Assembly (NCBI GenBank): GCA_051362555.1
Contig: CM120641.1
Coordinates: 38,384,401-38,448,400, forward strand
Length of the DNA stretch: 64,000 nucleotides
Source of the DNA: Lingula anatina
Lineage: Eukaryota > Animalia > Brachiopoda
Direction of reading: 5' to 3'
A program made the translations under genes and the position numbers. The notes under the pieces are model-generated. The model ran no database searches. It saw nothing but the letters and a program-made list of their open reading frames with translations, and was not told the DNA's origin. Positions 50,571-57,910 of this stretch are shown piece after piece (within the stretch, counting starts at the first letter, position 1; the number at the start of each line of letters is the position of its first letter).

Positions 50571-50633
50571 CTGGTTTTCACAATGATTTGCCAGATATTT
50601 TTAGAAATTCTGAGATCATTGTGAAAACTGATT
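50571..50633 (+). ncRNA. bantam: bantam pre-miRNA; mature 3p 50611-50633 UGAGAUCAUUGUGAAAACUGAUU; 5p/star arm ~50571-50595 CUGGUUUUCACAAUGAUUUGCCAGA
   Basis: The 3p arm matches the bantam family (seed GAGAUC; Drosophila UGAGAUCAUUUUGAAAGCUGAUU differs at 2 positions). ggttttcacaatgat pairs with atcattgtgaaaact and caga with tctg around a ~13-nt loop. Arm ends give a 2-nt 3' overhang. CNNC motif (CATC 50649-50652) starts 16 nt past the 3' end. Confidence 0.96.
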
Positions 50634-53407
50634 TTGTTCCCTATGTAACATCTTTGACCACGATGACCACAGCCCAGGAGGAACCGTTTGACCACTGTTG
50701 GAGCCATCACCACAACATCTTAACTGGTGCATCTGTGCCAGTTTAAATAAAAACATACTGAGATGATCAGAAAAAAGTCAAGCAACAGTTACTTGGTGCA
50801 TGATTGTTTTTGGATTATAGAGAAATAAAGACAAAATCAAAAGAATCTAGGTGGAACTTGAGTTTTTCACCCACCTGACTGAGAGCATGTTTAGGAAAAA
50901 GATTCCTTACTAAATGGATCCCAGTAGGCAGCATCAGATATGCAGTTTTTATGTTTGTTTTATTTGAAGGCAGGGAAGATATGAAAAACAAACACTTTGT
51001 CACATTGAATGAGATTGGAGCAGAGAATTTAACCTGGCCTCGTAGGCCTTCAATTAAATAAGCAGTCAATTAGTTAATTAACCTGATGTGATCCAGTGCA
51101 AGTTAATGATGAGAATGAGTGCAAATAACTGGGGTTCCAGAAAGAGCACCCAGCTAATCACACAGATCTTTAGTCTATGACAGGCCACATATTTATCAAT
51201 ATTTGAGTTTGTTTTGTGCCATACTTGATAATGCAGGCCCAGCAGATCAATGGCCAAGACAAGACCCACTTTGCTGAGGAATGGCATTAAATAAGATGGG
51301 TATGACCACATTTATATTGTATATATGTATATATATATATATGTATAGTTTATATTCTAGTAAAACTGTATCTGTCTGTGTAAATAATTTGTTTTGGGTT
51401 TTTGTACCAATTATTATCCAATTATTTAATGTTTAATATCCAAGAAAGAGACAATCAAAATATTTTTGAAATTCGAAAATGGTTATGAGTATTCGAAGGG
51501 GTCCCAAAGTCTTGATGTTCTTTTTTGGTGCACAGATATTTGGAATTAACCACATAAGCAAAAATGTGTTGTTCTACCATCAGATAGACATGGATATGAA
51601 ACTGTCTTTCAGTGGTAGTAACCATACAAATACATTAGGCAACCGACTTGAGGTCTATGAACAGAGAATTGAGGACAGGACATCTATACCAGAAAGGGGA
51701 AACCACCACCATGCATTTTCAATGTAAGGAATCATATTTGGTCATAAACAAGAGAAAATGTTGGTGGATTCAGTGTCAAATTTGACTGTCATAATTATTT
51801 TTGTTGTTCTTCCAAACTTTCATAGATTTAATTTTGTATTTTTACAAGAAAAACATATGACAATTGGTCCTGCAATGACCAAATGTTTCCCTACCCATTA
51901 AAGGAATTAAAGGAAGGAGCATATGTTGCAAATTATATCTGTGTTCCATCTTTTATACCAGTGGTTTAAGAGTTTAATTTCTTGCTCCATATGTTGTATA
52001 ATTTTGTCAGTTTTGGGGTTTGAGTCTGCAGTCAAAGAAGAAAAATAAAAAGGTGACTTTAAGAGTTAATTCTGGACCTTGAAGTTGACTTTAACCTTGA
52101 AAGCAATTAGAGTTTTAGGACAGACTGGGATTTTGGCTAGTTTTCTGGTGTTAAATAATTGATTATGAAAGTTTTAATAATTTAAATATAAAACTGACCT
52201 CAAATCCTTCTCATTTGTTAACGTTATTTATAACTGATAACTTCCCGAATCTGTCATCTCCCAGTTTAAAGTATATATTCGTCTCTTTGAACCCTACTTT
52301 TTATCCAAAATTCCTAGACCTTATTAGACCTAAAGGCATTCGAAAAGTTCAGAAATGTAACTTCATTTATTTTTTAAGCAAGATTAGCTTACATTTGTTT
52401 TGTAACACTGTTGTCAAATAAAAGAAACTGCAAATATTGTTACTACTGTTTAAACTTCCTGCAGGAATGTCTTAGTTCGTTCAAATTATTATAAAGACAA
52501 CACGAACAAATCAAAATGTCCGGGAGGATGAACCATTTATAGTACCAACACATATCTGAGATTGCATTTTCACCGTTTCTCCACTGTAGGGGTTGGATTT
52601 TTACATTATGATTTTACACATGGTGCGTTCATCTTTCATCTGCAGAGTTAATAAAAAAAACATTCACTGTGAAAAAATCAGAATATTTGATCCAAGGTTA
52701 CGTTGTAACTTGGCCGTATCTGAAGTCGCCCCTCTTTAAAATAAAGTAAAAGAAAGTAAACAAAACGTATCAGATTATGTTCTTAAAACGAAACGGAAGC
52801 ACAAATACGAATCTAAAAACGGCAATTGGCTGTTAAATATGAATGAAAACCCAATAATTTTTTATTTCTGCGTTCAGTATCAGATGGCGACGGGAGTGTT
52901 TTTTAGCTCGTCAACGATACCTATCAGTAGGCCAAAACCGGGGATCATAAGATAGCGTTCTGCCACGTTAGATCGTACCTCCTTCTTAACTTGCCACTTG
53001 AAGACAAATTTAGGGGCTTATTTGCTTTCCATATTGACTGATAGTCAGCTAATATTTGTTCAAAAGAAGGATAGGACGTCTGACCCAGCGAAGTCCGAGG
53101 TATTCGCTCTGGCAATTTACCAAATTTAATCGTCCAGTTGATAGTATTAGTGTAGCTATCTCGCAAAGGATCTTCCTGTCAGGGGGGTGCATCGAGAAAT
53201 TAAGGGGTTTTTTTACGAAGGTAGATGGACACAAAACATGGAAGTACGCCGATTTAGATCTATTTTGATTGTTAATGGTTTTACACTCATACATTCGGCG
53301 AGAAAAATTGTTAGGCCTATTGTGATAGAATGTACTAAAATAAAAACACAACTTTTTTGTTCTTTCTTTTTTTAATGAAAGGCTAAACTTAACAAAATGT
53401 CTAACTG

Positions 53408-55049: not shown

Positions 55050-57224
55050 TGATCTTTTTCCTTTAAAACGCCTTTATTTTCCATTGCTACACTTTTATTG
55101 AAAATTTAATTTGGGGGATAATTTTCATATTCTGCTCCTTCTCCGGAAACTCGAGGTGATGGAGCCAACTTAAACAAGTTTATGTTATATTGAGTGGTTA
55201 CATTCAACAGCAAAATGTGAGCACCGAATGAAAAAAAAATTGAAAAGTTGGAGGCCGTTTGGAAGACCACCGGTTTACGCAAACAGATATTCCGCAGACG
55301 AGGGCAAGTGTCTAACCGGAAAATATTTACGCTAAATATAAACCAACATAAAGGGAAACTTGTGCTGTAGCTTTTTCTCAAAGTTTTTAATTTCAAAGAA
55401 TAATATATTTTACAAAACATGGTGACACGTGTGAAATAAGGGAGCAAGCTTGTTGAACGTTTCTTAGTGTCTTGGGAACGCTGCATAGTTTGTTTAAATG
55501 CATACCTGGCGTTTAAAATAAAAACAATCATTTAACTAAAGGGGTTTTTAAAATTGACAAAAAAAGTATTCTTAAAAAGAACAAATAATCAAATCTCCAA
55601 CAGATGCTTCAAATTCTTGAAATCGTTTTCACATATTTACAAATGTGCGTAAAACGCATTTGGAAATAATCGTTCTAAATAACGACAAAAATTCACACAT
55701 TCTAATAATGATCAGCTACACATTGTATAGACAAGCTGAACATCATCGATGATAAAAAAAACGTAACTACAATAAATTAATAGAATATCAAAAGGTCTTT
55801 CATTCATATTACACTGTAATATAAATATAACTATATACAAAACATAAAAACCTGATTAAAAAAAGAAAAACACATGATCCGTCTCAAAATATAAAAACAA
55901 GGATCTCGTTTTGCTTTTTATCATACAGATTAAAACAGTTATAACATATCTACACAAACATGTTCAATGATTCCATTCTAGTAGTATTTCGTCACCCTAA
56001 ATTTGTCCTTATATCAAGGAAAAAAAAAAGAAAATCAATATTACACATTTTAAAAGCTTCATCCCAAATCTTTTGAAAATTAAGTACCTCAGAGACACAA
56101 GATAATGAACTTTAAAAAACGACCTAAGAGTCGCGTCCTGTGACATTTTGTTCTAGAACAGCATTCAGGGCTTTGAGAAAGTCGAGGTAAGGGGAACGGG
56201 TTTCGCCCCGCGCCCCTTGCACCTGCGCCCAATTGGCCCCTGCACATGTCACAGGAAGTTTACGGTCGAAAATGACAACATTTCGACTTCCCCAGCTGCT
56301 GAGCGTGACACGGCGCGACCCACGAAATGCTGCTTTACACAGCTTGTATCTTACTCTCCCGCTATCGGTTTCCACTTGTCTAAATATACAAATCGTGTTC
56401 ACCGTAAAATATCGCTCATTAACGACAACTCTTTTCATGTCTGTTTACCTGATATGCTCAACTAAACCCCAAGTTTATCCCTGGCGATTCCGCTTACACC
56501 TGAACCGTGCGCAACAAGTACTTCAAACTGTTTCGACTTTCACTGCTCCCGAGAGGAACCAAATTGCCAAGAGCAAATGGCACAACTTCTCAAACTATCC
56601 AAAAAGCAATTAGTCGATCTTTTCCCATAAGCTCAATAAATACTTCATCAATCCTAGTCCAACTTCAAAGAAGTTAGTAACACAATATTTTTGCCTATAT
56701 TTACAAAACCTGTTATAAGTAACGGATTGGGAACGGCATAATTTACCTGCTGCAATTTACATGCCGATGTCGTTTCTCGCTCCTTGTGGTGCGTTTTCTA
56801 TGTGCTAAGTAAAAACTTTAACAGCTAATTCAAGTCCCTTCCAGCTGATTGTTTTAATACTTTCTCCTCAAGAGAGGACAGCCGAGACAACAGAAGACTG
56901 CAGAACGCGCTTCGGACGCATCTGCAATGCCAAAATGTGCCGAGAATGTCACGCGTATATTCTATTGTCTCGCGACAGTTGTCCATCACTGTCAAAGCCA
57001 ACCACTCCCGTACCTCACAGCGTAAGGGATCGTACCATTTTGAAATACCCAAAAATTCTATTAATCTGCATACGCGACAGCATTTAACATAGCTTAGAAC
57101 TCATCATCTGTCAACAGGGGAACACGACACGTGCAAAAAGAGGTGCACCCCAAATAAAGAAGCAAAACCCGGGTGCTGAGATCAGATGGATAAAACGCTT
57201 GTGTTACAGGCACTTGCGTTCCCC
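55050..57224 (-). other. Putative SoxE 3'UTR (~2.1 kb)
   Basis: U-rich on the minus strand downstream of the stop. Minus-strand AATAAA hexamers at 55094-55099 and 55073-55078 (another at 54912-54917). The 3' end is inferred, not proven. Confidence 0.55.
57177..57184 (-). promoter_or_regulatory. 8-mer bantam seed-match site (UGAUCUCA) in SoxE 3'UTR
   Basis: Plus strand reads TGAGATCA at 57177-57184, i.e. UGAUCUCA in the minus-strand mRNA. Complementary to bantam nt 2-8 with A opposite nt 1; 40 nt downstream of the stop codon. The match is exact; function is inferred. Confidence 0.6.
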
Positions 57225-57910
57225 TCAGGGTCTAGGAAAGCGGTCCCAATGTGCCTCTCCACCTAAAAGAGTCATGGAAGGCGGGTATGGCGGTCTCTGG
57301 GAGCTGTGGGACATGTAGTGGTAGAGAGGAGGCGCCGGATGGTTTCCCGCTGCGGCATAAAAACCCGGGGGTGATCCACCAGGTGAGTACGTGTTGCCTT
57401 GGCTACTTGGGTTGTTCTGTAGCTCGAACCTGTGCTGATGCTGGGCTTGGGACATTGGAGGGAGGCCATAAGGGTACTTGTCTGTTGAATAATGGCTGGG
57501 CGGGGAGTTCTCTGCTTTGACTTGCGTTCCAGGAGAGACATTGTCATTTGTGTCTGCAGCATAGTTTCTGGGTATTGCGCTGTTGCCGGCATTTGGAATG
57601 TTTCCGTTGTTATGGAGATCTGTATCCACGGAGATAGGTTGATAATTGACGGACGTGGACACGCGATACGTGCTCATCCAATTTGGTGACGTCGTAGATG
57701 GGGCACCGCCGTACGCAGATGACGGATTGTTGTGTGCTGGGACATTGTTCACCACTGGATGTTGGCTGCCATGGTGACGGTGTTGCGCATGCCCATTAGG
57801 AGGTAAATACTGATCAAGCTCTGCCTCGTCAAAGTGATCGATGTTTCCGATGACATCGTCTCTAAACTCACCAAGATCCACGCGACTGAAGTCTATAGGT
57901 TGACTTTGAC
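57225..57910 (-). CDS. SoxE: SoxE coding exon 3: K2/TAM region and C-terminal transactivation region
   Basis: Acceptor tttttttcag|GT. Reads (G)[40 protein letters not shown], homologous to SOX9 [36 protein letters not shown]. Contains a VKAE SUMO consensus and ends [12 protein letters not shown]. Total CDS 380+362+686=1428 nt, i.e. 475 aa plus stop. Confidence 0.95.

What the first reader, a model, noticed from the sequence alone, without database searches (positions are those of the whole stretch)
50571..57227. Linked convergent miRNA-target pair: bantam faces SoxE, whose 3'UTR has a perfect bantam 8-mer site
Seen: bantam (+) and SoxE (-) are tail-to-tail with ~6.6 kb between hairpin and stop codon. 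The SoxE mRNA has UGAUCUCA (57177-57184) 40 nt after the stop, plus a 6-mer GAUCUC in the exon 3 CDS (~57616). Known: 8-mer sites more than 15 nt from the stop and near UTR ends are the most effective class. A given 8-mer arises by chance in a ~2.1-kb UTR only a few percent of the time (2100/65536, about 3%, under uniform composition). Inference: a co-located regulatory module (shared enhancers plus post-transcriptional repression), like miR-10/miR-196 within Hox clusters. I know of no description of a bantam-SoxE module, but cannot search the literature.
Basis: partly seen in the sequence, partly recalled or inferred. Interest (0 to 1): 0.88.

Follow-up and report, generated by a model that had tools for sequence, protein, structure and literature searches.

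The report
Ancient bantam–SoxE gene neighbourhood
The growth microRNA bantam sits tail-to-tail with the developmental gene SoxE both in this lamp shell and in a likely annelid worm, so the pairing is likely ancient and likely kept by shared control DNA, whereas the bantam docking site in SoxE's tail is real here but turned up in only one of five relatives.

Summary
In Lingula anatina a bantam hairpin (+, 50557-50640) faces SoxE (-) 6,585 nt from its stop, and a bantam 8-mer lies 41-48 nt after that stop. New here: the linkage recurs. One metagenome scan gave six SoxE loci. In the only one with more than 2.5 kb downstream (L008, annelid-like), a bantam hairpin lies 1,755 nt after the SoxE stop, again tail-to-tail; chance is about 1e-5 to 1e-4. 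The target site is not shown to be conserved: 8-mer in 1 of 5 other SoxE tails (P=0.13), none in L008's tail, and its flanks did not align in a closer relative. Few reads place pri-bantam's end near 52.4 kb, where a CpG-depleted domain of at least 52 kb stops; the transcripts do not overlap. Best reading: an old microsyntenic pair likely kept by shared cis-regulation, with a possibly lineage-specific site. Ten paper searches and five look-ups in this scan's notes found no description. Only one outside locus supports the linkage.

The parts
50557..50640 (+). bantam precursor hairpin
   Evidence: Rfam RF00727, 74.7 bits, E 8e-14; folds as one stem, -25.9 kcal/mol; a relative's contig covers 50424-50641 with 12 differences in 219 nt
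50611..50633 (+). mature bantam-3p (seed nt 2-8 GAGAUCA)
   Evidence: oyster bantam is read almost wholly from the 3p arm (387,481 vs 113 reads, PMC4138081 supplement)
50528..52440 (+). 3' part of pri-bantam (likely last exon or Drosha 3' product); acceptor-like pyrimidine tract + AG at 50510-50527, AATAAA at 52417-52422
   Evidence: + strand RNA at low depth (up to 1.65) over 50501-52500 in stranded runs X2 and X5, cover also in X8; signals read from the sequence; no spliced read seen here
1..52400 (+). CpG-depleted domain, likely the methylated body of a long non-coding bantam host transcript; starts outside the window
   Evidence: CpG o/e 0.245 vs 0.925 beyond 52400; T>A and G>C skew on + in 5 of 5 blocks; 0 of 147 open frames of 62 aa or more pass a Pfam cut-off. 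Methylation and host transcript are inferred
52441..55050 (.). intergenic gap between the two 3' ends, CpG not depleted
   Evidence: no read cover except one repeat-like bin with loose ends on both sides; CpG o/e about 1
55051..57224 (-). SoxE 3' UTR (about 2.1-2.2 kb; end approximate)
   Evidence: (-) strand RNA in X2 and X5, cover to 55001-55500 in X8; AATAAA at 55073 and 55094
57177..57184 (-). bantam 8-mer site TGATCTCA, nt 41-48 after the stop
   Evidence: predicted accessibility at the 91st-96th percentile of the UTR
57192..57196 (-). predicted 3'-supplementary pairing to bantam nt 14-18
   Evidence: duplex fold; 7.5-8.8% of random contexts score as well
57615..57620 (-). bantam 6-mer in exon 3 coding sequence (weak class)
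   Evidence: not at this place in the five other last exons, one of which has a 6-mer elsewhere
57225..57910 (-). SoxE exon 3, coding part with stop
   Evidence: identical to P0001; joint to exon 2 in X1 contig
58311..58672 (-). SoxE exon 2 (second half of the HMG box)
   Evidence: X2 reads run on into exon 1 sequence at 58674
62412..62791 (-). SoxE exon 1, coding part (Sox_N and first half of the HMG box)

Best explanation
bantam and SoxE stand tail-to-tail in this brachiopod and in a likely annelid locus, a pairing likely inherited from their common ancestor and likely kept because the two genes share cis-regulatory DNA, while the bantam site in the Lingula SoxE tail is likely a lineage-specific add-on rather than the reason for the linkage. 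Shown: both genes, their orientation, the site, two non-overlapping transcripts at low read depth, and the same arrangement in L008. Inferred: (1) common descent of the arrangement, about 0.9; (2) a long non-coding pri-bantam unit upstream of the hairpin, about 0.7; (3) selection on shared or embedded enhancers, as in a genomic regulatory block where the long pri-bantam unit carries elements for SoxE or both genes answer the same elements, about 0.55; (4) real repression of Lingula SoxE through the 8-mer where both are expressed, about 0.45. A mature miRNA acts in trans in the cytoplasm (established knowledge), so nearness cannot itself help targeting; it can only matter through transcription.
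For: L008: SoxE exons 2-3 on +, stop at 10864, bantam hairpin on - at 12619-12700 (59.5 bits, E 6e-10, full model, just under the gathering score of 61), gap 1,755 nt. Its mature arm differs from Lingula's at one position. The only DNA shared between L008 and the window is SoxE exon 2 and the hairpin. L008's last exon groups with the annelid Paralvinella at 90/92 support and is 24% identical to Lingula's, so it is an independent lineage. Chance of bantam lying there in that orientation is 5e-6 to 1.5e-5 for assumed genome sizes, 1.5e-4 on a shared 30-Mb chromosome. Long host: CpG-depleted domain of at least 52 kb ending at 52.4 kb, where + strand reads and an AATAAA also end; no Pfam gene in it (0 of 147). 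In oyster, bantam has no host gene and 15 of the 32 scaffold950 lincRNA rows seen (of 57) lie in the 37 kb just upstream of it. Fly bantam comes from a 40-kb locus with distant enhancers (PMC3764184). Site not the glue: the linked L008 tail (1,125 nt, to its AATAAA) has no 6-, 7- or 8-mer.
Against: The linkage rests on one outside locus; the other five SoxE loci hold 0-2,409 nt downstream and show no bantam, so they cannot test a 6.6-kb gap, and bivalve-like L003 excludes a gap under 2.4 kb. L008 is a metagenome contig of inferred taxon, with tree support below the starred level. No conserved non-coding element was found between L008 and the window, and no excess of paired Sox motifs, so shared enhancers have no direct support. 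L008 shows no sharp CpG boundary (o/e 0.6-1.2). Oyster linkage could not be settled. In Drosophila Sox100B is on 3R and bantam on 3L (recalled), so the pair can be broken. Annelid-like L004 does carry an 8-mer, a 7-mer-A1 and a 6-mer, which leaves conserved targeting open. Read support is thin: 37, 18 and 87 reads laid in X2, X5 and X8.
Confidence: 0.55

Rival explanations
1. Conserved regulator-target module: linkage gives co-expression, and bantam has repressed SoxE since the common ancestor, with the site moving about in the UTR or kept in only one SoxE paralog.
For: Lingula 8-mer is near the stop, predicted accessible, with 3' pairing that 7.5-8.8% of contexts reach. Annelid-like L004 has an 8-mer (+490), a 7-mer-A1 (+1424) and a 6-mer (+1476). 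L008 has an offset 6-mer at +58. The linkage is shared.
Against: 8-mer in 1 of 5 other tails, P=0.125; any 6-mer or better also in 1 of 5. None in 2,409 nt of bivalve-like L003 or in the linked L008 tail. Positions are not homologous. The 228 nt around the Lingula site did not align at 82% in relative X1, though the record holds a stretch of like length (512 vs 505 nt) and other UTR blocks aligned. Flanks are 50-57% AU against 62% for the UTR.
Confidence: 0.2
2. Neutral leftover: the order is ancestral but has simply not been broken in slowly rearranging genomes, and the 8-mer is a chance word.
For: No shared non-coding element; gap differs 3.7-fold; unlinked in fly (plus recall); an 8-mer is expected 2.4-2.8% of the time and this window was picked from very many.
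Against: Immediate adjacency with the same orientation across two phyla is the pattern that PMC3514665 ties to coregulation or regulatory blocks (passages); that paper's passages do not cover miRNAs.
Confidence: 0.2
3. Coincidence or assembly artefact: the two arrangements arose apart, or L008 is chimeric.
For: One contig, from a metagenome, not checked against reads.
Against: Chance about 1e-5; the contig is 37,586 nt and the gap only 1,755 nt; its bantam is a distinct variant that folds well (-28.0 kcal/mol).
Confidence: 0.05

Closest known systems
Hox-embedded miRNAs (miR-10, miR-196, miR-iab-4/8); PMC3394115, abstract and section 7 read
   Same: An old miRNA gene kept beside a developmental transcription-factor gene whose 3' UTR carries its seed match.
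   Different: [quoted passage not shown] Here there is one neighbour, tail-to-tail, and site conservation was not met (1 of 5).
Ancient microsyntenic pairs and genomic regulatory blocks; PMC3514665, passages read
   Same: A developmental regulator beside a long, largely non-coding unit, with adjacency shared between phyla.
   Different: The described bystanders are unrelated genes with enhancer-bearing introns; 'microRNA' occurs 0 times in the main text. Here the long neighbour would be a miRNA host that is itself a regulator. No conserved non-coding element or enhancer was shown.
Drosophila bantam locus; PMC3764184, passages read
   Same: Small hairpin at the end of a large non-coding locus (40 kb, 12-kb primary transcript, enhancers over 30 kb upstream).
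   Different: Fly Sox100B is on 3R and bantam on 3L (recalled): not linked. The Lingula domain is at least 52 kb and CpG-depleted.
Canonical 8-mer miRNA target site with 3'-supplementary pairing (TargetScan classes; recalled)
   Same: Match to nt 2-8 plus A, more than 15 nt from the stop, near a UTR end, predicted accessible.
   Different: Preferential conservation was not met, and flanks are not AU-rich.

Membership tests
bantam miRNA family (RF00727) | Precursor matches the family model above the gathering score | tested here: met
   74.7 vs 61 bits in the window; L008 copy 59.5 bits, E 6e-10, full length, just under the cut-off
bantam miRNA family (RF00727) | Mature 3p RNA is made in this species | not testable with these tools
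   No small-RNA run was offered; only long + strand RNA over the hairpin
SoxE (Sox8/9/10) | Sox_N dimerisation region plus HMG box split by an intron, and the IDF..V...DQYLP motif in the last exon | tested here: met
   Pfam PF12444 and PF00505; best named hits are Sox9/Sox10; motif aligned
Conserved miRNA target site | Perfect 8-mer in the expressed 3' UTR, over 15 nt from the stop | tested here: met
   nt 41-48 after the stop; bin covered by SoxE reads
Conserved miRNA target site | Site kept in orthologous UTRs above chance | tested here: not met
   1 of 5 tails, P=0.125; two tails are short (728 and 1,167 nt); flanks unaligned in relative X1. Small sample
Conserved miRNA target site | Seed-dependent repression or Argonaute binding | not testable with these tools
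   needs a reporter or CLIP
Ancient microsyntenic pair | Adjacent, same orientation, in distant lineages | tested here: met
   Lingula and annelid-like L008: two lineages only; 1 of 6 loci, the other five too short
Genomic regulatory block | Developmental regulator beside a long, mostly non-coding neighbour | tested here: inconclusive
   SoxE plus a 52-kb CpG-depleted domain without Pfam genes; the host transcript itself was not mapped upstream of 44 kb
Genomic regulatory block | Conserved non-coding elements in the neighbour | tested here: inconclusive
   None between L008 (7.4 kb upstream of its hairpin) and the window; several non-coding pieces align in the closer relative X1
Genomic regulatory block | Enhancers in the neighbour act on the regulator | not testable with these tools
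   needs chromatin contact and reporter data
Hox-type linked miRNA-target module | Linked miRNA preferentially targets its neighbours through conserved sites | tested here: not met
   the one other linked SoxE (L008) has no 6-, 7- or 8-mer in its tail
Natural antisense pair | Overlapping 3' ends | tested here: not met
   about 2.5 kb without gene-like read cover between the ends, at low depth

The most novel reading that the evidence does not exclude
bantam and SoxE form an ancestral spiralian, perhaps protostome, regulatory unit outside the Hox cluster: one enhancer landscape drives both the growth miRNA and the Sox9-class factor, and bantam in turn caps SoxE through mobile seed sites, kept on the linked gene in Lingula and shifted to a second SoxE copy in annelids (L004 has sites, L008 has the linkage).
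Probability: 0.2. Interest if true: 0.85.

Novelty: new member of a known kind. Interest (0 to 1): 0.6.

Why it matters
bantam's role outside flies is little tested, and SoxE is studied in spiralian gonad and other tissues (e.g. oyster, PMC4232546). A bantam-SoxE adjacency shared by a brachiopod and an annelid would be an old miRNA-transcription-factor linkage outside the Hox cluster that my searches did not find in print. It points to the ancestral regulatory setting of bantam, gives a synteny marker for both genes, and makes a clean test possible: is a miRNA kept beside a gene because it shares enhancers with it, or because it targets it?

Tried and rejected
No whole genome is held for the window, so no genome-wide rank of bantam sites could be made. 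My first tally counted L008's match at +1777 as a UTR 8-mer (2 of 5, P about 0.02); it is the antisense of the bantam gene itself, so the tally is 1 of 5. L005 was dropped from site counts because its contig ends before the stop. L008's tail was cut at 1,125 nt, just past its only AATAAA. L004's sites are not antisense hairpins. bantam pattern scans: 2 hits in prokaryote genomes, no bantam by Rfam; 0 and 11 hits in viral contigs, 9 of the 11 scanned with Rfam and none was bantam, none of the 11 folds like it. SoxE scan of viral contigs: 0 of 119 candidates. Records behind L003-L008 could not be searched further. A named close relative of L008's SoxE was not found. No RNA holder was listed. Oyster test: bantam at scaffold950:540415-540487 and SoxE = CGI_10022931, but no table tied that gene to a scaffold (file 1 of PMC4592983 not searched). 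Octopus supplement gave no coordinates (file 2 not searched). Spider test failed: SoxE scaffolds were found but the miRNA supplement could not be read. These unseen files may bear on the linkage. Paired Sox motifs near bantam are not enriched. A protein-coding host was not found: 0 of 147 frames pass Pfam cut-offs, though small exons would be missed. Transcript overlap rejected at low depth. Reads were laid only on 44001-59000, so the upstream host and SoxE exon 1 have no direct read map.
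Full report
Observation. The window is from the brachiopod Lingula anatina: its SoxE last exon is identical to the named protein P0001, and exon 1 differs by one residue, so this is another haplotype or assembly. Rfam finds one RNA family in 64 kb, bantam at 50557-50640 (+). SoxE has three coding exons on (-) in one 475-aa frame. The 8-mer TGATCTCA lies at 57184-57177, nt 41-48 after the stop, and a 6-mer at 57620-57615. 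The stop is 6,585 nt from the hairpin.

Is the site more than chance? Markov models expect 0.024-0.028 such 8-mers in this UTR. Across the window the word is not enriched: 5 found, one being bantam itself, against 2.97 expected. Four of 48 ancient seeds, typed from recall, have an 8-mer in the same UTR. The site is predicted to be accessible (91st-96th percentile) and to pair bantam nt 14-18 as well, a score that 7.5-8.8% of random contexts reach; its flanks are less AU-rich than the UTR. It is a good-looking site but not proof.

Transcripts. Four runs were laid on 44001-59000; reads are few (37, 18 and 87 in X2, X5, X8). The two stranded runs give (+) RNA over 50501-52500 and (-) RNA over 55001-59000. 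Between them only one repeat-like bin has cover, so the transcripts converge without overlap. CpG o/e is 0.245 over 1-52400 and 0.925 beyond, with a sharp edge at 52.4 kb, beside an AATAAA at 52417. None of 147 open frames in 1-55000 passes a Pfam cut-off. I infer that bantam lies at the 3' end of a long, body-methylated, non-coding unit of at least 52 kb. In oyster, bantam has no host gene and 15 of the 32 scaffold950 lincRNA rows I saw (of 57) lie in the 37 kb just upstream (PMC4138081 and PMC4748301 supplements). The fly locus is also large (PMC3764184 passages).

Relatives. An alignment of spiralian SoxE last-exon motifs was scanned against metagenome contigs: 424 stretches matched and 6 were confirmed. 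A tree places L003 and L006 with molluscs (100/100) and L004, L007 and L008 with the annelid Paralvinella (90/92, not starred). L005 ends before its stop and was dropped from site counts.

Linkage. L008 is the only locus with a long downstream flank (9,256 nt). What first looked like an 8-mer at +1777 is the antisense of a whole bantam gene: Rfam RF00727 at 12619-12700 on the opposite strand, E 6e-10, 59.5 bits against a cut-off of 61, 1,755 nt after the SoxE stop. This is the same tail-to-tail order as in Lingula. SoxE exon 2 and the hairpin are the only DNA the two loci share. Chance is about 1e-5 for assumed genome sizes and 1.5e-4 on a shared chromosome. The other five loci hold 0-2,409 nt downstream and no bantam; they cannot test a Lingula-sized gap. 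Oyster, octopus and spider coordinates could not be completed from supplements. In Drosophila Sox100B is on 3R and bantam on 3L (recalled).

Site conservation. With L008's tail cut just past its AATAAA, the 8-mer is in 1 of 5 tails (L004, +490, which also has a 7-mer-A1 and a 6-mer); 0.133 were expected, P=0.125. The bivalve-like L003 (2,409 nt) and the linked L008 (1,125 nt) have no 6-mer or better; L006 and L007 are short. In a closer relative (X1 contig), UTR blocks 56174-56718 and 56923-56994 and the coding end align, but the 228 nt that hold the site did not align at 82%, although a stretch of like length is present. An isolated 8-mer could survive there, so this is not proof of loss, but the site is not in a conserved block.

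Mechanism. A mature miRNA acts in trans, so being next to a target gives no advantage except through transcription. The conserved thing here is the adjacency, and it exists in L008 without a site. The likeliest account is an inherited pair held by shared or embedded cis-regulatory elements, as for ancient microsyntenic pairs and regulatory blocks (PMC3514665 passages), with the long pri-bantam unit in the place of the bystander. This step is inferred: no conserved non-coding element or excess of paired Sox motifs was found. The Lingula 8-mer may add repression where both genes are on, about even odds. Rivals are a fully conserved regulator-target module (0.2), neutral retention of gene order (0.2) and artefact (0.05).

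Known or new. The kind is known: Hox-embedded miRNAs (PMC3394115 abstract and section 7) and ancient microsynteny. The pair was not found in print. Searches for bantam with SoxE (0 papers), Sox100B (0), sox9 + mollus (1), synteny + lophotrochozoa (2), Lingula (2), sox10 + microRNA (4) and microsynteny (3) gave no title or abstract start on such a pair; I saw only listings for those hits, and subscription journals are not searched. Other papers used: PMC4232546 and PMC6307133 (passages; supplement rows for the latter), PMC4592983, PMC5481141 and PMC9699675 (supplement searches, no useful hit).

Verdict. Observation confirmed; interpretation partly supported. The result worth following is the cross-phylum bantam-SoxE adjacency, on two lineages so far. 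Novelty: new member of a known kind. Interest 0.6.

Noticed in passing
window 52400: Very sharp CpG o/e step (0.245 to 0.925) that coincides with the end of pri-bantam reads; the whole SoxE gene and the gap lie in a CpG-rich domain, as expected of an unmethylated developmental gene.
   Followed up: partly
outside the window (P0003): A second Lingula SoxE ('Sox-10', 306 aa) is listed on a contig of the same length as P0001's (1,338,293 nt), which suggests a tandem duplicate on the same scaffold; it is not in this window. Its UTR was not available.
   Followed up: no
L004 and L007: Two different annelid-like SoxE types (35% identical last exons) occur on contigs of one record series; the type with bantam sites (L004) differs from the type linked to bantam (L007/L008).
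   Followed up: partly
L008 12619-12700 (-): bantam variant with A at mature position 10 instead of U; exact-pattern scans built on the usual sequence miss it.
   Followed up: yes
window 56174-56718 and 56923-56994 (-): SoxE 3' UTR blocks that stay alignable in the divergent relative X1 (27 differences and 9 gaps over about 545 nt) while neighbouring UTR does not; candidate conserved UTR elements.
   Followed up: no
window 55051-57224 (-): 8-mer matches to recalled seeds of miR-7 (+1958), miR-252 (+1138) and miR-277 (+1723) in the SoxE UTR; seeds from recall, unverified.
   Followed up: no
window 50435-50746 (+): A 103-codon open frame runs through the bantam hairpin; no Pfam match, probably chance.
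   Followed up: partly
window 43552-43657 and 50510-50527 (+): Exon-like segment with acceptor and donor look-alikes, and an acceptor-like tract just upstream of the hairpin; possible exons of the bantam host (read; no spliced read seen).
   Followed up: no
window 39915-41593 and 21461-21937: Local tandem repeats: a unit of about 159 nt at 40067-40619 with a further copy near 41258-41593, and a degenerate array at 21.5-21.9 kb.
   Followed up: no
oyster scaffold950 (PMC4138081 supplement): The miR-1994a/b cluster, whose mature arms begin like bantam's, lies on the same scaffold about 476 kb from bantam.
   Followed up: no
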